The notes under the pieces are model-generated. The model had not been told where the DNA came from. It saw only the letters and a program-made list of their open reading frames with translations, and did not search any database. The position numbers were made by a program, and so were the translations under genes. From NCBI GenBank assembly GCA_013115125.1, contig JABANN010000335.1, forward strand, positions 1-38,065: a stretch of DNA of 38,065 nt, given 5' to 3'. Positions within the stretch are counted from its first letter, which is position 1, and each line of letters opens with the position of its first letter. This DNA is from Perkinsus olseni. Taxonomy: Eukaryota. Below, piece by piece: positions 1-23,567 of this stretch.

Positions 1-439
1 CCCTATAGGGCGAAACGCTTGGATATCAATAGTAAGAAATGCAAGAGTAGAAGTGGAGCTCTTCTTGGTCACATGTCGTGCAGTCTATGCCGATCCTATC
101 ATCTCCAGTTTTCCAATGTTAAGCTTCCAGGTACGATGATTGGTACAAATTGCCAAGTACTGCTGCTGCTATTAGCAACTAAGTCCATCAGTTGGATGCT
201 GTGCCAACGGCTCTTCCAATACAGTAGCACCCTCTTGGACGCCACCGCTGCCGTCATTCTATTTACTATCTACTGTTAAGAAGCATGATTCAGGTTACGT
301 TGACGCTTCACTGTTATTAATGTTGCGTTCTCGGGGTGGGAGGATCATCAGCTGCCGAGTAATCTGTATGGTAGTGGATCCGCTTCCCGAATTGCGTGAT
401 GAACTCTTCTCATCTTCAGTACTGTCACCAGCCTCTTCC

Positions 440-3035
440 ATGTCCGCATTCTCGAGGCCCGATGATCAGAGGCAGCAGCAGCAGCAACCCCCGGCCTTCC
501 ATAGTAGTCTGGCGTATGGCAATGCCGAGGATAGAAAGGTACAACTGGAGGGATGGAGGATGGGGCTTTCAGGGAGGCAAAGGAGACCCAAGATGATACT
601 GTTGCTATTGGTCGACGCTCCGATCCTGTCGTGATTTACTGTAGGGTCTTATGATCGCACTCTGTTGATCTGATCGTTGTGGTTTAGTACCACCTGTTTG
701 CTGCCTTGAGTAGTTGGGATGATCGTGTTAGCGTCGACAAGGCGAATCTTACGCCGCTACTGCTGTTGCTGTTCAGATCTTTATGGGCGGGCTGCCGCAA
801 GAGATCGATAAGCAGTACATTGATGCTTACTTCTCACAGTTTGGTGCGATAGAGGATTCCATAGTGATGATCGATCGTGCTACTGGACGGTCGCGAGGCT
901 TTGGTTTTATCACGTTCCTGCAGCCACAGGATATGGAGGTAGCGCTATAGCGACACAGGAAGCCCTACCCTCCTCCTTCTGTTCAGGCCTGCTTGGCGAA
1001 CGGTCCCCATGTTGTTATGGAGAAGGTTATTGATGTTAAGCGGGCTGCTGATGGCAAGAAGCAACACACACCTGCCAATGCTGGGCCAGTGTCACGAGGA
1101 AGGGGTATGACGATATCACGACCAGATCCGGATAGATACGGTACTACTCTGATGAGCTCGTCTGAGTGCCAGCCTACTGTTGTTGCCGTCTTCAGGTCAT
1201 TTTCATAGGCAAAGTGTCATGGATGATCACCCCGGTCAAGTAGTGGCTGATGATCCACGCAAAGTATTCATTGGTGGGATTCCAGTTAGTGGTGATAGAG
1301 GTAGTAGGGGTACCTGAGGCAGCAGCAGAATCATCGGGGTCTGGATAACCCTACATCTCCTTGATGTCGTAGATAAACTCATCGCCTTGTTATCCCGGTA
1401 TGGTAACGTAATTGACTGTGACATCATGTACGATAAAGAGACGGGCAGGAACAAGGGATTCGGCCGAGCGACCTTCTCGTCACCCGAGGAGGCTGCTGCT
1501 GCCATGAGGGGTGGGGAGAGGAATATGATAGATGCCAAATGTGTACGCAGCATTGCCGTCATTGCCAGTGGTGTATTCCTTGGTGATAGGTTGATATCAA
1601 GCCGCTATTGAGGCCATCGGATAGTCACAACAACAGTGCTCACGGCAGTCACCATCAACGCGATTATCAACGACGTGATTCCTTTACAAGGTAGCAGCAA
1701 TAGCTTTTGTGTGGGTAGTTGATGATCTAACCCTGCTCCTGCTCAGCGACCCTGCCGACGCCTCATGTAAACTGTTCCTGGGTGGTATTCCTCAATCTGC
1801 TGATGAAGGTAGTAATGACCTGGCTGCTGCTGTTATTATTATAACGGGGCTGCCTGTGTCCCTTCAGATAAGCTCGCCCATCATTTATCTCGGTATGGTA
1901 GAGTAGTAGATGTTAGAATATATCAAGACTTAGAGACAGGGCGACATAAGGGGTTCGGGTATGCAGTCATGGGTACTCCAATGGAGGCTCAGGCCGCGTG
2001 TAATGGTGGCAATAACAACTACATCGATGCTAAATGGGTGAGTACAGCGGTCACAACAACAGCAGCAGCGGTATGGCTCATCAGCATACTTGTACTGTCG
2101 TTAGGTCCAAATCAAGCCATTCTGTAGCCCTACTCCTCACGACCGTTATCCGCGCAATCCACAGCAGCAGCACACCCCTACCCCTCCTCCACCAGCGGGT
2201 GGTGCGCCCCCGCCCCCTCCTCCCCCACCTTCCAGTGTGAATGCTACGGGACTGCCTGTTGGCAGTAATACTCGCGGTGGTGTCTATCCGCCACCACCAT
2301 CACTGGGAGAACTAGCCAACTATGCTCGAGGATCGTATGTATCCTCTCGACCTCCCGTGAACTATCCAGTACCACCCTACCAACGACAACAACAGGATAA
2401 TTTCAGTACATCCCTGAATAGTAGCCCGTACCGCCCCCAACAACAGACGATGATGATGGCAGGGCCTGCACAATCACTACCACCGCCACGGCAACAGTCA
2501 GCTCAACCCTATCAGCAACAGCAGCCACAACAATCTCAAACGCCGCCATCAAGTACAGGAGGGAATACGATGATTATGTCAATGCAGTAATACTCACCAT
2601 GGCTCTTATGGATCTTTGACCGTCACCTTTAGGGATTACCACAACCCGTACATCCGCCACCAACAGCAGCAACAGGATAGTCGTACATCACCATCTAGTA
2701 TACAACAGACTGCCACTCCGACATCATACCCTCAACAACAACAGGCAATGTTCACCACCTTACCAGCACAAGGGACAGTTGCAGGGACGTATCCACCAGC
2801 CATGTATCCGATTAATCCTTCGGCAATGACGGCGGGCCCGGCGCGACCATCGGCCATTACTCCTACTGCTGCTGTTGGTCCTGCTATGACGTCACCTGGC
2901 ACTAGCCCTGGTGGGTATGCTTATCGAGGCTTCGTGGGGAATACCACATCACAGCCGTCGATCTACAACCCGATGTCAGCCTATCAACGTCCCACACACT
3001 ATGTTACAGGGACCCATAGGACTATGCCTTATTAG
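440..3035 (+). CDS. Multi-exon RNA-binding protein with three RRMs (hnRNP A1/Musashi/DAZAP1-like), Q/P-rich tail; paralog 1
   Basis: ATG at 440 (MSAFSRPDD), intron 539-776, exon 777-938 IFMGGLPQE...GRSRGFGFITF (RNP2/RNP1). RRM2 is VFIGGIP...NKGFGRATF and RRM3 is LFLGGIP...HKGFGYAVM. GT-AG introns restore the frame across the RRMs. Ends HRTMPY* at 3035. Confidence 0.9.
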
Positions 3036-8320: not shown

Positions 8321-10945
8321 ATGTCGTCATATCAACAACAACAACCCACGTCAACGACAGCAGATGACGGTGACGGTAATGATAATAACTGCAGCCTTCC
8401 TCCACCTGGATACGAGAGTTCGACCACAACGGACGCCCCTGTTCCTCTTCCCGGCACTACGACTGCAGTGCCGCCATTACCGCATGAGCCTCCCGTAGGC
8501 GATGCATCTAGTAGACAGGAGCGAAAGGTGAGTAGCAGCTGTACATCGCTACAACGCCACTACTGCCTTCTTCTGTCTGTAGTTGTTTGTGGGAGGCCTA
8601 CCATCAAGCTGCGATAAAGAACAATTTGATATGCATTTTGGTCAGTTTGGTAGCATAAAGGACTCTATAGTGATGACTGATAGAGTCACAGGCAGGACTA
8701 GAGGCTTTGGCTTCGTCACTTACACGACTCTCGATGCTACTGAGGTAGTAGCAATGAGCATGATATGGCTACTACAACGATTCCCTCTATCCTCCATCTC
8801 CCCTCAGTTATGCCTAGCAAGTGGCCCTCATGTACTGATGGACAAGATGGTCGATGTTAAGCGAGCTACGATACAAGGGCCGCCTCCGCCTCAACACTCT
8901 AACCGTGGTGGTGGTACGAGAGTCTTCCCTTACTCACCATACCAACCCTCAAACTTTTTACCTCAGATTTCATGTCTCCTCCCAGTGGTGGTATGTTTGG
9001 TGGCAGCGATGGTGGAAGGTAAGGCCTACTCCTTTTTATACTGCGTATATACTATGGTAGATATACTCCTAGTATGGGTAAAGGCCGGGGGCCCTCGATG
9101 TACGATGATGGTTATGGCGATATGTATCCTCCTGCTGCTGGGGGTCGTGTATCTATGCCCCCTCCCTCATCACCATTCAATGATGGTAGTGGGTATAACC
9201 CATGCAAGCTGTTCATTGGTGGTATACCATCAGACATGGATCAAGGTAAGTATCAGTAGCACTTGGACCTGTGACTGCTTATCCTCGTTTAGTACGACTG
9301 GATCAGTTCTTCTGTCGTTATGGGAATATAGTAGACTCGGTTGTGATGAAGGATAGGATAACTGGCAGACCTCGAGGCTTCGCCTACGTTACCTATTCAA
9401 CCCCTGAGGAGGCCCAAGCCGCTATGGATGCTGGTGATGCTAATGTTCTTGATGGCAAATGGGTAATAATAACAACAACGGATGAATGATAGGCAGTAGT
9501 ACGTGGACAGGAAGGCTCTTGCTGTGAATCATACAGCAGGTGGGATCATATAGCAATCAGGATACATTGGTATGATGGATACACTGCTATTGTCGATAAA
9601 TGTCATTACTAGCCACGTGAATGACTGCAGTAGAGTGTTCAGGAAACCTTGTGAACCCGAACCTCAGTCTGTGGTCTCTGGTGTGATGATAGGGTATTAT
9701 CAGGGTCGTCCGATAGTATTTTTCTTATTTCATCGTCGTCGTCGTCGTAGTGACCGTCGTCGTCTAGGTTGATGTTAAGATAGCTACTCGAGGTTCAAGT
9801 GCTCCAGGATCAGCATCATCACCATCGGGTCCGCCTCCAGGGTAGGTAGTTATCAACAACAATAACAACAACCATACTAGGATTACTTAGTACAGTCTAG
9901 ACTAGTTTATGTTACCCTCCCGTTATGAGCGTGATGCTTGTGCTACTTTGCTTCCCTTATGTCATTCACGACTGGTTATACTTTAGGTTCTCCCCTCTAC
10001 CCTTCCATCGTGGCAGTTCCGCTCCGATCGACACCGGCTCAGGCCCTGGGTAGTAACAGTAGTGCTATCATCACCATACGATGGTTGACACCCTTCAGAC
10101 CGCTACGACATTACCCTCAACCTCGATCATCATCAGGGCCCCCTCTGCCTGATGGTAGTGGTAGTGTTGCTGGAGATAATCCCTCTAAAGTCTTCATTGG
10201 TGGTGTACCAACCTCAGTCGATAATGGTAGTAGTACTGCAGTAGTGCTAAGCACCGTACCTCGATCATCATCATCATCATCAGGTCAATTACAAGAGGTA
10301 ATGTCACAGTATGGCAGTGTGGTAGACTGTATCATTATGACCGATCGTATGACTGGTCGTCCGAGAGGCTTCGCCTACTGCACCTATACCACTCCAGAGG
10401 AGGCTCAAGCAGCCTGTAATGGTGGCAGCAACAACTCTATCGATGGCCATTGGGTAGGATTGAGAACATCGAGGCAATCGTGAACCTCCACCTGTCATCA
10501 TCGTCATCAGCTTGATGTGAAACCGGCTACGAGAGATCCAGCCATCTGTGGTCCAGGGAGATCATCATCCAGGGGCGGACGACCACCAATGGACCATCAC
10601 GACCATAATCGTCATCAATTCGGGTAAGTGCATTACCGACAAAGCCAATGTGAGGTCTATGAGTAGATACCAAGCACGTGGTTTTGGATCTCCCTATGGC
10701 CAGTCAAGAGGCGAAGGCTCCTTTGGTCGTGATGGAAGGTAGTAGTGGGAACTTATCGTAACGATGATGACGACTATTCTATGCGTTGTGGATGTAGGTA
10801 TGACATGGCGTACAATAACCAGGGTATGTATCCCTACCCGCAGCAGTACCCTACTCGGACGCCTTACGGAATGCCACAACAACAGCAGACGTCTCCCTAT
10901 CCCCCACAACAACAGCAGCCACAGTATCGTGCTTCCCCATACTAG
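8321..10945 (+). CDS. Multi-exon 3xRRM RNA-binding protein; paralog 3
   Basis: ATG 8321 (MSSYQQQQ). RRM1 LFVGGLPS...RGFGFVTY, RRM2 LFIGGIPS...RGFAYVTY, RRM3 VFIGGVPT...RGFAYCTY. Ends YRASPY* at 10945. Confidence 0.9.
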
Positions 10946-11199
10946 AGAACTATCTAAGATGCAACCAATCACGTGTGTATTTTGATATCCCTTCCTGCAC
11001 TACTGTTTGCCCTCATCATCATCAACATCATCACTACTAATTGTAGTATTAGTAGCAGTAGTAGTCCTCTGTGGGGACCGAGTGTTTCTGTATTTCTCAC
11101 GTAATAACATATACGGCTTCACGGTCTTGCGTTCGGCTTCCCCTGTACAAGTAGTTCTCGCTCTCAGTTGTTCTCTCATCCCCCTCCAGCTCTCTTCCG

Positions 11200-12789
11200 A
11201 TGTGTCCTCCCAGGGCTATCCATCCTGCCTCGGTAGTCTGGACATCATCGTCATCGTCGTCGACAACTGCCCCTGCCCGCCGCAGTGTCCTCGATAATCA
11301 CCACGAAAGGTTATTCCATATACGCGGCGATACCTTCCGTGAACTGGGAAGGAATCTATCCGCGGCTGTTGGGAAGAGGACTAGGAAAGCCTTCCAGGAT
11401 GATCTGGAAGTATGGACATCTTTGGACTTGGTGAAGAAGTGGCAGACTATCGCATCAGCCGCAGCTCGGGCAACCAAGCACCTTTCACCATCACTTTATG
11501 ATTTCTTCGAGGGCATGGATGAATCTTTGAGTAGCCCCGAGGTTGGTCTAGGAGGCTCGGTATGGCAGTTGTTGACTATGTACGAAATGGACATGTACGT
11601 GTATCGGTATGCAGCCAGGTGCTCAGTGTGCTCCAGTAGGATCATGGATATCCCGCGGAGGAAGTGCATGTGCAGGTCATGGTGTAATAAGTGCTATAAA
11701 GCGGCTAGCAAACCCCAATTCTGTGATATATGCAAGTTTGCTGTGAGGGAGGTACACCAGATAGAACCTAGTAAGAAGATGGGGACGGAGGGAGTCGACC
11801 AGGCCTCCACAACCTTACTCCACGATAAAACTGGGGGTGCCAACTGTTGCTGTTCTCCTCGAGTGGTGAAGGGTAGATGTACTGGTTTTGGTTCCCCAAG
11901 GAGTGGTATCTGTGCTCAGACAGTTGATATGAGTTGTGACACGTACAACCACGGAAGGGATGATGCATGCTACCTCATTAATCTACCTACTGGTCATCGA
12001 GACTGGGCCCTTGTCTATGATGTAGGCTGTATAGCCAGTCCCATTGGTATCAATAGTAGAGGGGTCGCCATGTGCCTCTACAACCTGTATAATACTGCAG
12101 GTCATGGGTATGAGCGTGCTCTTGCAGACTCATCGACCAAGGAGTCGGCTGAAGTGCTGCCCATGGCTGTGTTACAGTGGGCTGTTTTACTGGGAGAGTT
12201 GGATACCATTGAGAAGATAGAGGGCATGCTGAGGAAGGCACTGAGGGACATAGGGCTCTATACGTCCGCTGCACTGGTCATTACATGTACTAATAATCCT
12301 GGTGAGGTGCTCGAGGCTGAGATGGCTGGGAATGATATCTGGACGCGGGTGGTGGAGGCAGCAGGGGGAGATGAAGATAAGGAGAAGGGGATGGTCATCA
12401 GGGCTAACCACTCACAGCCTACCTCATCAATCAAGCCAACTGAGGATATCCCAAAGGACGTCAGTGAGTCATCACATGATAGGCTGACTAAGCTCACTGA
12501 GTCGTTGGTAGCAGCAGCACCGGCTGGGGCGACGAACGAACATCAATGCAATAAGGAGCCTCGGCTATCAACGGATGGTGTGGTACCAGCTAATATATCA
12601 GCCCGGGAAGTACTATCACAGGAACCAATTCAAGAGGATGATACACTTGCCACTGTAGTGCTACGCCCTAGGGAAGGTATCATGGATATACGCTTTAAAC
12701 TGGGTACTAGGATAAAGGTTACCATCAAAAGGGGTACATGGCTACAGTTCGGCGGTGGCGATGACAACAACGTCCATGGTGGGGATTGA
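11200..12789 (+). CDS. Peptidase C45 (acyl-CoA:6-APA acyltransferase-like) Ntn-hydrolase precursor with inserted RING-like Zn finger
   Basis: Uninterrupted 529-aa ORF. Alpha-chain-like motifs G-D-T-F-R-E-L-G, FEGM and LLTMYEM. Putative nucleophile GR/CTGF (Cys227, nt 11878-11880), followed by AQTVD, GINSRGVAMCLYNL, IRANH, SSHDR and TLATVV in the order typical of C45. Cys8 motif at nt 11620-11733. Confidence 0.75.
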   Translation: MCPPRAIHPASVVWTSSSSSSTTAPARRSVLDNHHERLFHIRGDTFRELGRNLSAAVGKRTRKAFQDDLEVWTSLDLVKKWQTIASAAARATKHLSPSLYDFFEGMDESLSSPEVGLGGSVWQLLTMYEMDMYVYRYAARCSVCSSRIMDIPRRKCMCRSWCNKCYKAASKPQFCDICKFAVREVHQIEPSKKMGTEGVDQASTTLLHDKTGGANCCCSPRVVKGRCTGFGSPRSGICAQTVDMSCDTYNHGRDDACYLINLPTGHRDWALVYDVGCIASPIGINSRGVAMCLYNLYNTAGHGYERALADSSTKESAEVLPMAVLQWAVLLGELDTIEKIEGMLRKALRDIGLYTSAALVITCTNNPGEVLEAEMAGNDIWTRVVEAAGGDEDKEKGMVIRANHSQPTSSIKPTEDIPKDVSESSHDRLTKLTESLVAAAPAGATNEHQCNKEPRLSTDGVVPANISAREVLSQEPIQEDDTLATVVLRPREGIMDIRFKLGTRIKVTIKRGTWLQFGGGDDNNVHGGD

Positions 12790-12949
12790 CGACGAGGAGG
12801 GGCTAGGAGCTCCATCATTTTCACGTTGTTGTCATCATTGTATCATTCCTGATTCATCCATGCTTGTGTGTCAGTGGGTGAGGTTATACGCAGCAGCATC
12901 GTCATCGTCAATATAGTAACGTTTTCATGATGCTGTTGATACTCCTTTA

Positions 12950-14650
12950 ATGTCATATAACAACCCGTATAACCTATCCAATCCCAATCAGACAACACAA
13001 CCACAACCACAGCAGCAGCAGCCTCTGCCGTTTGGTCCCCACCCTGCAGCACCACTCACACAGCAAGGGGGTGGGGCAATGCAGCCGCCGGGACTACCGA
13101 CCCCTATGCCGATGCCATACCCTGCCATGCCCCCTTATGGTATGATGCCCGGCCCTCCTTTGGTACCTAACGCTGCAATGGTCTACCCCAGCGGATACCC
13201 TGGTAAGGAGAAGGAGTGCAAATCGTTATCGTGTGGTATGGGCCAAGGTGTTATTATTCCCTCAGGATTCCTTATGGGCGGCGGTATTCTCATGCAACCA
13301 CAGCAACAGCAGCAGGGCCCAGGCAATCGAGTAAGGGTTAGTTACCACTGGTCGTGGTCGTTTATTACGAGAAGTTCATCAGGCAACTATGACTGCCCCC
13401 GCTGGTGTTATGCCACATAATCAAATGCCGCAGTATCTGGCCAGTACCACTCCATCCACTACCACCAGTGGTCCTACTGGGGTCAATGCAATTCCAACAA
13501 CTATCATGAAGACTGAAAGCTTGGCAGGGCCTCAGCTCGGTAGTATCAACAGCAGCAACAATAACGAAATTAAAGGCTTCGAGGTGTAAGTTGGGCTTCA
13601 GCTGAGGATTCATCGAAGCTCCTGTCTCTTTAGTGATCGGTGTGCTCCAGGCAGTGGGAGTGGAGGTGTAGATTACGTCAAAGCTGACCCGAACCCCAAG
13701 GTACAGGAATCAAGCCATGGGCCATCTAAAGTAGAGCCCACGATGAAGGAGGAGGATCCTAAGGATAAGCCGGCTTTCAAGGAGCTCACCTTGGATGATC
13801 TAGTGGCCCCACCCGGGTATATTACATCTTGCATCACCTCGGTCTGGATCATCATGTGATGTTTTAGACCGGCATGTGCCCTAGACGATCCTAAGTTGAA
13901 GGCTGCTTATGATTACTGTGATACCACAACTGCCGCGGTCATTGACGTGGCCATCAGGTAGTGCTACTGCCACCGACTATCAGTCATTATAGCTCTCCTG
14001 GTGTATGTCAGGCAGGCAACGGCCCTCTGCGAGCGAGGTATAGAGGAGCAGTTTGAAGTGGCTGAGGCTGAGCTTAGGGTTGCCATGATAGAGGCGGAGA
14101 TGGAGGCGTATAAGTAATCAGTGCTACCCTACCACCACGGAGATCTGTTCATTGTTAGAGCGGCGATGGCGATATCCAAGGATCCAAGTGATATTGAAAA
14201 TAAACGCCGAAGAGTGGCGATGTGAGATCCCAATAATAGTGGAGGATGTAGGATGGTGCCTGCCTCAGATACGGTGGTACTCTTTCTCCTACTCAAAGCC
14301 CACGCGATACAGGTCAAGCCTCGCCTGAGAGTCCGGATACTAACGTATGGGGTGGAGGGCTCAGTGCGGGCCAAGGCCGCAACAACAGTCCCGAACCGGT
14401 AAGAAAGAGCACATTAGACGCGCGCGATTACGATCTCCACGATATAATGTCTCGCTGTTAGGGCTCCCTCCACAGCGCTGATCAGGACCCGGCTAAGCCC
14501 ACCCTCCCACCACGTTTTGGTGGAGGGGTGCGGCATCACCGGCGAGCCCATCTCTCTACTGGTGCGGCGAACATGAGTACTCCTGAGAATGGCAGCCCGG
14601 CCATATCCCCTCCGAGTACCACCAGTACTGATAGTTCACCTGCTGAGTGA
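12950..14650 (+). CDS. Multi-exon hypothetical protein, Pro/Gln-rich N-terminus, helical middle, Ser/Pro-rich C-terminus
   Basis: ATG 12950 (MSYNNPY) and a series of short GT-AG introns linking frames (DDPKLKAAYDYC, EEQFEVAEAELRVAM). Last exon 14462-14650 ends SSPAE*. Confidence 0.65.
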
Positions 14651-22722: not shown

Positions 22723-23567
22723 TCACTGTTTCTCGTCAGGACCTCTCTTCCTCACGATAGAGACTCCATCACAGATACATAGCATAGAATTCTCTACGCG
22801 ATCGTCAAGCATTATTTTCTTATTCAACCTGTCTATAGCTGACCCGTCTGCGTGTTGCCCATCGAGAACGGTTCCATGGAAGAAGGTATTATCAACAGCG
22901 ATAATACCCGTGGTAGGCTTGGCCAGCTTCAGAGCTAACTCATAATAGGTATCATAATCGGTTTTATTGGCATCAATGAATATGAAGTCGAAGGTGTTGG
23001 CAGCATCTTCGTCCTCGATCAACTTCTTCATACCAGCCACCGCGTTACCAATCCTTATCTCAATACGATCAGCAACGCCGAGTTCTCGCCAAAAGTCCTC
23101 AGCCTTCACTTCATCCAAAAACTCTTTACAAATATCCAGTCCGATGACTTTGCCGTCCTCACCAACACCTTGAGCAAGATACGCCGTGGTGGAGCCACGG
23201 AAGACACCTACCTGAGCAAGTTTGAGTGACACAGAACGAAAGAAACCGCCAGCTTGATTCGATGCGTTGCTCACCTCGAGAGCCTTTTTGGCTCCCATAG
23301 CCCGCAGAAATAGGCTAAAGAACTGCGCTTCATCGGGCCCACCAGCCATCACAGCCTGATCCCTCGAGGCAATCCTATCGTAGAACTGACGTTGTAGATC
23401 GGTTGCCCTGGAAGTGAGAGGCAGGGTATAGACGAAGCGAGAGCTGGTGTATGAAGAACCTCCTTCTTGTTGTGCTACCTAATCGAGTTGTCGTAATAAT
23501 ATTGAGTCAACTCGGGATGCTTGGCTATAGTGGGAGGACCAGCTGATTTGAGTTCTTGAGTGCGCAT
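22723..23567 (-). CDS. SAM-dependent O-methyltransferase, caffeoyl-CoA OMT / COMTD1 type (Methyltransf_3)
   Basis: ATG 23567 (MRTQELK). GPDEAQF, AKKALE-VGVFRGST (SAM motif split by intron 23274-23212), FDFIFIDANKTDY and GIIAVDNT metal-binding motifs. Confidence 0.9.

What the first reader, a model, noticed from the sequence alone, without database searches (positions are those of the whole stretch)
11200..12789. C45 Ntn-hydrolase with a RING-like zinc finger inserted just before the autocleavage site
Seen: between the alpha-chain-like end (LLTMYEM) and the predicted nucleophile (GR/CTGF) lies C-x2-C-x11-C-x-C-x3-C-x2-C-x9-C-x2-C (CSVC...CMCRSWCNKC...CDIC, nt 11620-11733). This is RING spacing with Cys in place of His, followed by a CCC cluster. 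Known: C45 precursors such as the fungal isopenicillin N acyltransferase self-cleave before the catalytic Cys and normally have only a short linker here. Inference: after maturation the RING would cap the alpha chain beside an amidase/acyltransferase site, suggesting an E3-ligase/amidohydrolase hybrid or a zinc/ubiquitin-controlled zymogen. I do not recognise this architecture.
Basis: partly seen in the sequence, partly recalled or inferred. Interest (0 to 1): 0.78.

Follow-up and report, generated by a model that had tools for sequence, protein, structure and literature searches.

The report
Self-cleaving hydrolase with inserted zinc finger
A Perkinsus (oyster/clam parasite) gene encodes a penicillin-acyltransferase-like self-cleaving hydrolase that carries an eight-cysteine zinc finger in the linker ahead of its catalytic cysteine, a rare but real variant whose finger cannot be shown to be a ubiquitin-ligase RING.

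Summary
ORF 11200-12789 (+) encodes 529 aa. Its modelled fold matches precursor isopenicillin N acyltransferase (IAT, peptidase family C45): Z 34.5, rmsd 2.8 A, 329 of 356 residues. Cys227 aligns with the first residue of mature Cys-Ntn beta chains. NCBIfam C45_proenzyme matches at E 2.5e-14 but below its cut-off. An 88-residue insert (139-226) lies between the alpha-like domain and Cys227 and holds the Cys8 motif C141-C178.

The insert is not an intron. RNA-library contigs run colinear across it. Between the window protein (closest to P. olseni) and P. marinus, the finger is better conserved (26/30) than the catalytic domain (130/174). All five full-length non-Perkinsus relatives of the same clade carry an eight-ligand finger at the same site.

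The RING/E3 reading is not supported. RING spacing occurs only in Perkinsus (0 of 5 relatives). Matches to RING and ZZ profiles stay below their cut-offs. The finger could not be modelled. The CCC cluster is not conserved, and 48 poorly conserved residues separate the finger from the cleavage site.

Best reading: a probably cytosolic C45 proenzyme with a lineage-specific two-zinc accessory module that stays on the alpha chain after cleavage. It is a new variant of a known kind, and its substrate is unknown.

The parts
11166..12851 (+). Transcript span, colinear with the genome and with no intron
   Evidence: Contigs X1 rec3 cover 11166-12840, X4 rec14 cover 11166-12806 (then adapter), and X2 rec11 (library on record as RNA) cover 11181-12851. 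No joints and no gaps were reported. Neighbouring contigs stop at 11098/11115 and restart at 12915/12916.
11200..12789 (+). Coding sequence, 529 aa plus stop. 11200 is the first ATG of the transcript.
11200..11304 (+). N-terminal extension (residues 1-35), Ser-rich, with no hydrophobic signal-like stretch
   Evidence: sequence. pLDDT under 50 for residues 1-32. Not aligned to IAT (model range starts at 36).
11305..11613 (+). Alpha-chain-like helical domain (residues 36-138)
   Evidence: model 36..529 aligns to IAT precursor 1..347. Helices 46-138 are in the model. The LLTxYE motif is conserved in the family.
11620..11733 (+). Cys8 finger, C141-C178 (inferred to bind two zinc ions)
   Evidence: P. 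marinus identity is 26/30 over residues 149-178, with all six Cys in that stretch kept. An eight-ligand motif sits at the same site in P0004, P0005, P0019, P0024 and P0025.
11734..11877 (+). Linker/propeptide (residues 179-226), poorly conserved except for the LHD-x-TG-x-AN stretch and the last 7 residues. It includes the CCC cluster at 216-218.
   Evidence: residues 187-219 are 11/33 identical to P. marinus and residues 220-226 are 6/7. pLDDT is under 50. Alignments.
11878..11880 (+). Codon of Cys227, the predicted N-terminal nucleophile. The predicted autocleavage site is R226|C227.
   Evidence: C-T-G is kept in every family sequence that covers the column. 31 of the 50 rows start their alignment at model residue 227, matched to the first residue of mature beta chains or mature enzymes.
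11878..12759 (+). Beta-chain-like alpha-beta-beta-alpha Ntn hydrolase domain (residues 227-520)
12400..12411 (+). R-A-N-H motif (residues 401-404). N403 is nearly invariant in the family and aligns with the T-N-H of IAT.
   Evidence: N403 in 90% or more of sequences. (profile alignment to 2x1d residues 245-247).
11595..11876 (+). Candidate in-frame GT..AG intron (282 nt) that would remove the whole insert. Considered and rejected.
   Evidence: Boundaries read. No joint was seen in any of the 4 runs, and X14 contigs 11316-11778 and 11750-11938 cross both boundaries.

Best explanation
The gene encodes a probably cytosolic proenzyme of the C45 (IAT/Tan-like) branch of the cysteine N-terminal-nucleophile hydrolases, in Perkinsus olseni or a very close relative. 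Shown: the fold, the alpha-like and beta-like halves, the conserved Cys227/Asn403 positions, the transcribed intron-less ORF, and a conserved eight-ligand Cys motif at the alpha/beta junction in one clade. Inferred: the precursor cuts itself between Arg226 and Cys227, as IAT does at Gly102-Cys103. This frees Cys227 as nucleophile for an amide hydrolase or acyl-transfer reaction on a still unknown N-acyl substrate. The ancestral short pro-linker (18-31 residues in one dinoflagellate clade) has been expanded in this clade into a two-zinc Cys8 module. The module starts directly after the last alpha-domain helix, and a flexible tail follows it and leads back to the active site. After cleavage the module would remain at the C-terminal end of the alpha chain, next to the active-site entrance. 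There it most likely acts as a zinc-stabilised docking or regulatory module for a partner or substrate, not as a catalytic RING E3.
For: Fold: the AlphaFold2 model has pLDDT 71.2 and pTM 0.75, with core blocks at 85-96. The Foldseek top hits are IAT 2x1d/2x1c at E 2.5e-11 to 1.6e-9. VIA gives Z 34.5, rmsd 2.8 A and 329 of 356 residues against precursor IAT. Acid ceramidase (Z 27.9), NAAA (26.7), PVA and BSH follow.

Sequence: NF040521 matches at E 2.5e-14, and 9 of 10 relatives hit NF040521, with P0007 at 85.6 bits against a cut-off of 85. Pfam AAT passes its cut-off in relative P0014 (24 against 23.2). The family profile hits IAT 2x1d at E 1.9e-4, aligning A-N-H with T-N-H.

Nucleophile: 31 of 50 rows start at residue 227.

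Transcript: colinear contigs in 4 of 4 runs laid, 2 of them on record as RNA, with breaks at the intergenic gaps and adapter at the ends. The contig of the next gene carries GGCTCA before a genomic AG. That is the 3' end of the Perkinsus spliced leader as given in PMC3101222 (passages read).

Finger under selection: 26/30 identical to P. marinus, against 11/33 in the following linker and 130/174 in the beta domain. The family motif is present in 7 of 7 full-length clade members tested. The finger-bearing group is one side of a branch with support 99/98.

Variable junction: the insert is 18-31 aa in clade c, 75-168 aa of Ser/acidic low complexity in clade b, and 83-96 aa in three clade a members.

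IAT, IAL and Tan self-process at Gly-Cys (PMC2692852 and PMC10194958, passages read).
Against: No experiment shows autocleavage, zinc binding or any activity. P0001 itself is below the curated cut-offs of both C45 models: no Pfam AAT hit, and 53.4 bits against 85 for NF040521. The residue before the nucleophile is Arg, not the Gly of IAT and Tan. The finger and linker (139-223) are modelled at pLDDT under 50, so its fold, its zinc topology and its position relative to the active site are unknown. A cytosolic location rests only on the absence of an obvious signal sequence, read by eye. The docking/regulatory role is inference from position and conservation only. Contigs drop rare variants, so a minor spliced isoform is not excluded.
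Confidence: 0.55

Rival explanations
1. The finger is a true C4C4 RING. The mature enzyme would then be an E3-ligase/amidohydrolase hybrid, or its zymogen would be controlled by ubiquitin.
For: The Perkinsus spacing fits the RING consensus exactly, with Cys at ligand 4. The full length of Pfam zf-C3HC4_3 (positions 4-48 of 49) aligns at E 0.013 when the finger is scanned alone. phmmer aligns residues 139-185 to the MUL1 RING 6k2k at E 0.89. A distant clade of the same family carries an N-terminal UBA-like domain: P0011 scores 23.2 bits on UBA_4 against a cut-off of 21.8. That is a weak hint of a ubiquitin link.
Against: All RING scores are below cut-off: 11 and 15.7 bits against 27. 0 of 5 non-Perkinsus clade members fit RING spacing. 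They have C-x2-C or C-x4-5-H at ligands 3-4 and 19-29 residues between ligands 4 and 5. The Pro usual at the seventh-ligand C-P-x-C is absent (recalled feature; the sequence reads C-D-I-C). No fold model is available.
Confidence: 0.12
2. The finger is a ZZ-like cross-brace domain that reads a free N-terminus or peptide and brings a protein or peptide substrate to the hydrolase.
For: Relative P0005 matches Pfam ZZ at E 0.04 on the full length and E 0.0013 on the finger alone. The finger profile aligns its first half (the K-C-x2-C...R-Y-x-C-x2-C region) to the dystrobrevin ZZ 9c3c/2e5r at E 0.43 and 1.3. That ZZ domains bind N-terminal peptides is recalled knowledge, not tested here.
Against: Only 1 of 6 fingers hits ZZ, and it is below the 21.4-bit cut-off. 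The last ligand pair is C-x2-C, not the H-x3-H of ZZ. There are long loop insertions between ligands 4 and 5. SprT-type and double zinc-ribbon profiles score about as well (2 of 6 each, best E 4.4e-4 and 0.034).
Confidence: 0.12
3. The protein is a non-processing pseudo-enzyme or single-chain enzyme. The finger-plus-linker would then be a permanent lid, possibly zinc- or redox-sensitive, over the active site.
For: P1 is Arg instead of Gly. Fungal IAL self-processes yet has no detected penicillin-related acyltransferase or amidohydrolase activity, so family members need not share IAT's activities (PMC2692852). The linker is long and partly conserved just before Cys227 (6/7).
Against: Cys227, Asn403 and the Q-T-x-D/E stretch after the nucleophile are kept across all three clades. 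Other Cys-Ntn hydrolases cleave after non-Gly residues (recalled).
Confidence: 0.15
4. The Cys-rich segment is an unspliced in-frame intron (11595-11876, GT..AG, 282 nt) or a gene-model artefact.
For: GTACGT at 11595 and AG at 11875-11876 would join in frame. 69.2% of 104 Perkinsus genes examined have introns (PMC3101222 abstract).
Against: There are no joints in 4 of 4 runs, and contigs from two libraries on record as RNA cross both boundaries. Identity to P. marinus at protein level is 26/30. The finger is present in 5 distant relatives.
Confidence: 0.03

Closest known systems
Acyl-CoA:isopenicillin N acyltransferase (IAT, penDE) of Penicillium chrysogenum, peptidase family C45, PDB 2x1c/2x1d/2x1e
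   Same: Whole-chain fold, both the alpha and the beta part: Z 34.5, rmsd 2.8 A, 329 of 356 residues. Cys at the start of the beta part. A/T-N-H motif aligned. IAT self-processes at Gly102-Cys103 into 11 and 29 kDa chains (PMC2692852).
   Different: Only 11-15% identity. An 88-residue insert with a Cys8 finger replaces a short linker. P1 is Arg, not Gly. No peroxisomal ARL tail (the C-terminus reads ...HGGD). A 35-residue N-terminal extension.
Drosophila/insect Tan (N-beta-alanyl-amine hydrolase) and fungal IAL, eukaryotic C45 members
   Same: Eukaryotic C45 members. Tan self-cleaves at Gly121-Cys122 and hydrolyses a small amide (PMC10194958). IAL self-processes but has no detected penicillin-related acyltransferase or amidohydrolase activity (PMC2692852).
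   Different: No zinc finger at the junction is described in the passages read.
Dinoflagellate C45-like proteins (P0010 Durusdinium trenchii; P0014 Prorocentrum cordatum / Polarella glacialis, named 'Peptidase C45 hydrolase domain-containing protein' by UniRef)
   Same: Same family by phmmer (E 1.6e-6 and 8.2e-5), with the same LLxxYE, G-C-T-G, N-S-x-G and R-A-N-H motifs.
   Different: At the junction they have either a short linker (18-31 aa) or a Ser/acidic low-complexity insert (75-168 aa), with no Cys8 motif. Some carry an N-terminal UBA-like domain instead.
RING fingers of the zf-C3HC4_3 type (e.g. MUL1 RING, PDB 6k2k)
   Same: Eight-ligand spacing identical in Perkinsus except Cys for His at ligand 4.
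   Different: Scores are below cut-off. Relatives of the same clade do not keep RING spacing (0 of 5). No evidence for a cross-brace fold or for E2 binding.

Membership tests
Peptidase C45 / IAT-like Cys-Ntn hydrolases (Pfam PF03417 AAT, NCBIfam NF040521) | Profile match at or above the curated cut-off | tested here: inconclusive
   P0001 has no Pfam AAT hit at E up to 10. NF040521 scores E 2.5e-14 and 53.4 bits, under the 85-bit cut-off. Family relatives pass: P0007 at 85.6 against 85 and P0014 at 24 against 23.2 on AAT.
Peptidase C45 / IAT-like Cys-Ntn hydrolases | Alpha-beta-beta-alpha Ntn fold with an N-terminal helical alpha part as in IAT | tested here: met
   Predicted model against 2x1c_B: Z 34.5, rmsd 2.8 A, 329 of 356 residues, model 36-529 to chain 1-347. 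Foldseek E 2.5e-11. This is a predicted structure, not a solved one.
Peptidase C45 / IAT-like Cys-Ntn hydrolases | Nucleophile Cys at the first position of the beta part | tested here: met
   31 of 50 listed alignments begin at model residue 227, opposite the first residue of mature chains: acid ceramidase 143, human NAAA 126, PVA/BSH 1-2. C-T-G is kept in all family sequences that cover it.
Peptidase C45 / IAT-like Cys-Ntn hydrolases | Conserved Asn of the T/A-N-H motif and an acidic residue 16-18 positions after the nucleophile | tested here: met
   N403 is in 90% or more of the family and aligns to the IAT T-N-H. Q240-T241-x-D243 is conserved as Q-T-x-D/E. The catalytic roles of these positions in IAT are recalled, not read here.
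Peptidase C45 / IAT-like Cys-Ntn hydrolases | Autoproteolytic processing into alpha and beta chains, and amidase/acyltransferase activity | not testable with these tools
   Needs protein expression and mass spectrometry.
RING finger (C3HC4/C4C4) | C-x2-C-x9-39-C-x1-3-[CH]-x2-3-C-x2-C-x4-48-C-x2-C spacing, kept among orthologues | tested here: not met
   Met in the two P. olseni-type proteins but in 0 of 5 non-Perkinsus clade members. The regex was written from recalled consensus.
RING finger (C3HC4/C4C4) | Profile match above the curated cut-off | tested here: not met
   zf-C3HC4_3 scores 11 bits on the full length and 15.7 bits on the finger alone, against a cut-off of 27. 2 of 6 fingers hit at all.
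RING finger (C3HC4/C4C4) | Cross-brace two-zinc fold | tested here: inconclusive
   Residues 139-223 have pLDDT under 50. The partner fold was also uncertain.
RING finger (C3HC4/C4C4) | E2 binding and E3 activity | not testable with these tools
   Needs an in vitro ubiquitination assay.
ZZ-type zinc finger (PF00569) | Profile match above the curated cut-off | tested here: not met
   P0005 scores 14.2 bits against 21.4. 1 of 6 fingers hits, at E 0.0013. The Perkinsus finger gives no ZZ hit.

The most novel reading that the evidence does not exclude
The finger is a working cross-brace (RING- or ZZ-like) recognition domain, and this alveolate C45 family acts on proteins rather than small molecules. 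Its members would then be self-processing Cys-Ntn amidases recruited to ubiquitin-system components or to protein N-termini. Recruitment would run through the junction finger in the Perkinsus clade and through the N-terminal UBA-like domain in a dinoflagellate clade. That would be a new class of ubiquitin- or N-terminus-directed amidase, or an E3/hydrolase hybrid.
Probability: 0.1. Interest if true: 0.8.

Novelty: new variant of a known kind. Interest (0 to 1): 0.45.

Why it matters
Ntn hydrolases are activated by cutting a linker that plugs their own active site. Here that linker has been rebuilt into a conserved metal-binding domain. This offers a natural case for asking how an accessory domain at the cleavage junction affects zymogen activation or substrate choice. 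Its three clades decorate the same enzyme with three different add-ons: a zinc finger, an acidic low-complexity insert, and a UBA-like domain. That pattern suggests regulation through protein contacts. If the finger proved to be a ubiquitin-system module, it would link two enzyme worlds not known to be fused. If not, it is a modest domain-architecture novelty in a mollusc parasite.

Tried and rejected
1. In-frame intron 11595-11876: rejected.
2. First AlphaFold2 run with 3 sequences: unusable (pLDDT 29.6).
3. The search for homologous proteins with the clade alignment returned only the two Perkinsus proteins, not even its own query members. The word index was probably swamped. The region search added P0024 and P0025.
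4. The genome search 'own': no genome is held for this window, so paralogues and P. marinus DNA (for dN/dS) could not be examined.
5. ESM Atlas on the finger: no usable hit.
6. PDB profile search with the finger alignment: the best hits were a cytochrome c (E 0.31) and a formate dehydrogenase Fe-S subunit (E 0.39), taken as Cys-driven noise. Dystrobrevin ZZ scored E 0.43 and the cIAP2 RING E 6.4.
7. Complex prediction (alpha core + beta core + finger 139-190 as partner + 2 Zn): no verdict, score 0.00. It is not used as evidence either way.
8. Earlier findings of this scan: nothing found by place, sequence or words.
9. Literature: 0 papers for Perkinsus + Ntn hydrolase. 1 irrelevant rice paper for 'peptidase C45' + 'zinc finger' (listing only). 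0 for the AAT name + dinoflagellate. 0 for Ntn hydrolase + RING finger + insertion. So no description of this architecture turned up in those four searches. Subscription journals and supplements were not searched.
11. Neighbouring ORFs show no ubiquitin-pathway context.
Full report
WHAT IS THERE. The window is eukaryotic. The 529-aa product of ORF 11200-12789 (+) is 96% identical to a hypothetical protein of Perkinsus olseni (P0002). It is 68-72% identical to a truncated P. marinus gene model (P0003) that begins at Met149. The window therefore comes from P. olseni or a very close relative.
- LLTMYEM is residues 124-130.
- The Cys8 motif C-x2-C-x11-C-x-C-x3-C-x2-C-x9-C-x2-C is residues 141-178, nt 11620-11733.
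- CCC is residues 216-218.
- R226/C227-T-G-F follows.
A RING-consensus regex, written from the recalled consensus, matches once in the protein. It matches in 0 of 5000 composition-preserving shuffles.

IS IT A C45 NTN HYDROLASE? Yes at the level of fold and superfamily, with a caveat on the curated cut-offs.
- Pfam finds no AAT domain in this protein.
- NCBIfam NF040521 'C45_proenzyme' matches residues 218-494 at E 2.5e-14 and 53.4 bits, under its 85-bit cut-off.
- An exhaustive phmmer search of 1.84 billion representatives found 17 proteins at E up to 1e-3.
- 9 of 10 relatives scanned hit NF040521. P0007 reaches the cut-off (85.6 bits), and P0014 passes Pfam AAT (24 against 23.2).
- UniRef names two of the relatives as C45/AAT proteins of the dinoflagellates Durusdinium, Prorocentrum and Polarella.
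- A profile of the 20-sequence family alignment hits IAT (2x1d) at E 1.9e-4 and aligns the family's A-N-H with the IAT T-N-H.
- AlphaFold2 failed with 3 sequences (pLDDT 29.6). With 20 sequences it gave pLDDT 71.2 and pTM 0.75, with the core at 85-96.
- The Foldseek top hits are the IAT entries, at E 2.5e-11.
- VIA-align gives Z 34.5, rmsd 2.8 A and 329 of 356 residues against precursor IAT, with model 36-529 aligned to chain 1-347. Acid ceramidase (Z 27.9), NAAA (26.7), cephalosporin acylase, PVA and bile salt hydrolases follow.
- In 31 of the 50 rows listed, the alignment begins exactly at model residue 227, opposite the first residue of mature beta chains or mature enzymes. This places Cys227 as the N-terminal nucleophile.
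- C-T-G, Q-T-x-D/E, N-S-x-G and R-A-N-H are conserved across the family.

IS THE CYS-RICH SEGMENT REALLY PART OF THE PROTEIN? About 69% of 104 Perkinsus genes examined have introns (PMC3101222 abstract). A GTACGT at 11595 and an AG at 11875-11876 would remove 282 nt in frame, so I tested splicing.

Of 24 runs listed for the stretch, 20 hold it and 2 are on record as RNA. I laid 4 of them: X2 and X14 (RNA on record) and X1 and X4 (RNA guessed). No joint, gap or differing letter was reported.
- X2 covers 11181-12851.
- X1 covers 11166-12840.
- X4 covers 11166-12806, followed by adapter.
- X14 contigs 11316-11778 and 11750-11938 cross both putative splice sites.
In three runs of three studies the neighbouring contigs stop at 11098/11115 and restart at 12915/12916. 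This is the pattern of separate transcripts, not of genomic DNA.

The X1 contig of the next gene carries adapter plus GGCTCA before a genomic AG at 12915. This equals the ...GGCTCAAG 3' end of the Perkinsus spliced leaders (PMC3101222, passages read). The contigs are therefore mRNA-derived, and the gene is intron-less with its first ATG at 11200. The caveat is that contigs can hide a minor isoform.

Independent support comes from conservation between the window protein and P. marinus:
- finger, residues 149-178: 26/30 identical, with all six Cys kept
- following linker, residues 187-219: 11/33
- last seven residues before Cys227: 6/7
- beta domain, residues 227-400: 130/174

THE FAMILY AND THE JUNCTION. 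The relatives fall into three groups, each one side of a well-supported branch (supports 99/98, 100/100 and 100/99). The tree used 16 full-length or near-full-length rows. The fragments P0006, P0009, P0013, P0015 and P0017 were left out, and the tree is unrooted.
- Clade a holds Perkinsus plus the unnamed environmental sequences P0004, P0005, P0019, P0024 and P0025. Every full-length member has an eight-ligand motif at the same junction: C-x2-C-x11-C-x1-2-C (or C-x4-5-H), then a 3-29 residue loop, then C-x2-C-x4-9-C-x2-C. It is present in 7 of 7 tested.
- Clade b is dinoflagellate. It has a 75-168 residue Ser/acidic low-complexity insert with no such motif.
- Clade c is also dinoflagellate. 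It has a short 18-31 residue linker. Two members carry an N-terminal UBA-like domain: P0011 scores 23.2 bits on UBA_4, above the 21.8 cut-off, and P0010 scores 15.7 bits, below it.
So the alpha/beta junction is a hot spot for insertion in this family. On this sample, the finger needs only one gain.

WHAT KIND OF FINGER? This is unresolved, and RING is not supported.
- The Perkinsus spacing is RING-like. It aligns to the whole zf-C3HC4_3 model, but at 11 bits (full protein) and 15.7 bits (finger alone) against a 27-bit cut-off. It aligns to the MUL1 RING at E 0.89.
- The five other clade members fail the RING regex. They have 19-29 residues between ligands 4 and 5, where RINGs have 2-3.
- Among the six fingers scanned alone, the hits scatter: SprT zinc ribbon 2 of 6 (best E 4.4e-4), zf-C3HC4_3 2 of 6 (0.0058), double zinc ribbon 2 of 6 (0.034), ZZ 1 of 6 (0.0013). 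All are below their cut-offs.
- The finger profile finds nothing convincing in the PDB.
- Residues 139-223 of the model have pLDDT under 50.
- The long variable loop between ligands 4 and 5 is as compatible with two sequential zinc knuckles as with a cross-brace.
- The CCC cluster is not conserved: P. marinus has S-S-C and the other relatives have none.

HOW IT MOST LIKELY WORKS. Shown:
- a transcribed, intron-less gene
- a C45/IAT-like fold with alpha-like (36-138) and beta-like (227-520) halves
- conserved nucleophile and Asn positions
- a conserved Cys8 module that starts three residues after the last alpha-domain helix
- a poorly conserved tail that leads back to Cys227
Inferred from established C45 biochemistry (IAT Gly102-Cys103, Tan Gly121-Cys122, and IAL self-processing; PMC2692852 and PMC10194958, passages read): the precursor cleaves itself at R226|C227. 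The alpha chain (about 25 kDa, ending with the finger and tail) stays bound to the beta chain (about 33 kDa), and Cys227 then attacks an amide or thioester substrate. Inferred from position and conservation only: the finger binds two zinc ions and serves as a docking or regulatory module at the mouth of the active site. The lack of an evident signal peptide, together with an all-Cys zinc site, suggests a cytosolic, reducing location. The substrate is unknown. I put this composite reading at about 0.55. The rivals are a genuine RING E3 (0.12), a ZZ-like peptide reader (0.12), a non-processing lid or pseudo-enzyme (0.15) and an intron or artefact (0.03).

COMPARISON AND NOVELTY. By fold it works like, and belongs with, the C45 branch of Cys-Ntn hydrolases. 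By curated sequence thresholds the protein itself falls short, while its family relatives pass. What is new is the conserved eight-ligand zinc-type module in place of the short pro-linker. Four literature searches and the scan's own notes turned up no description of it. Subscription journals, supplements and InterPro architectures could not be searched. I rate it a new variant of a known kind, with interest 0.45. The architecture is real, conserved and rare, but the striking E3-hybrid interpretation is unsupported and the function is open.

Noticed in passing
window 12915-12916 and 11166-11167: Both this gene's contigs and the next gene's contigs begin at a genomic AG. The X1 contig at 12915 carries non-genomic GGCTCA just before it. 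Together with the AG this gives the 3' end of the Perkinsus spliced leader as published (PMC3101222). These are probable SL trans-splice acceptor sites.
   Followed up: partly
window 8583-9353 and 9938-10480 (+), continuing to about 10945: Two ORF pieces with RRM_1 domains (E 8.6e-14 and 5.8e-11), followed by Q/P-rich ORFs. This is probably one intron-containing RNA-binding protein gene whose transcript contigs end at 11098-11115.
   Followed up: no
window 22726-23352 (-): ORF with a class I O-methyltransferase domain (Methyltransf_3, E 1e-39), of the catechol/caffeoyl-CoA OMT type.
   Followed up: no
window 12950-13420 (+): Downstream Q/P-rich ORF with no Pfam match. It is transcribed as a separate unit starting at 12915.
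   Followed up: no
proteins P0010 and P0011 (dinoflagellate relatives): An N-terminal UBA-like domain (P0011 UBA_4 at 23.2 bits, above cut-off; P0010 at 15.7 bits, below) is followed by a C-x2-C...C-x2-C-W motif, ahead of a C45 domain with a short linker. This is a second, different accessory architecture in the same family.
   Followed up: partly
proteins P0007, P0008, P0012, P0013, P0014, P0018: A dinoflagellate clade with a 75-168 residue Ser/Asp/Glu-rich low-complexity insert, preceded by a charged helical stretch, at exactly the same alpha/beta junction.
   Followed up: partly
protein P0003 (P. marinus PMAR014798): The public gene model starts at Met149, inside the finger, and lacks the whole alpha-like domain. 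It is probably a truncated model rather than a truncated gene.
   Followed up: no
window residues 207-215 of the protein (nt 11818-11844): A short stretch L-H-D/E-x-T/S-G-x-G-x-A-N, lying 4-12 residues before the nucleophile, is conserved between Perkinsus and the other finger-bearing relatives. It may be the part of the propeptide that occupies the active site.
   Followed up: no
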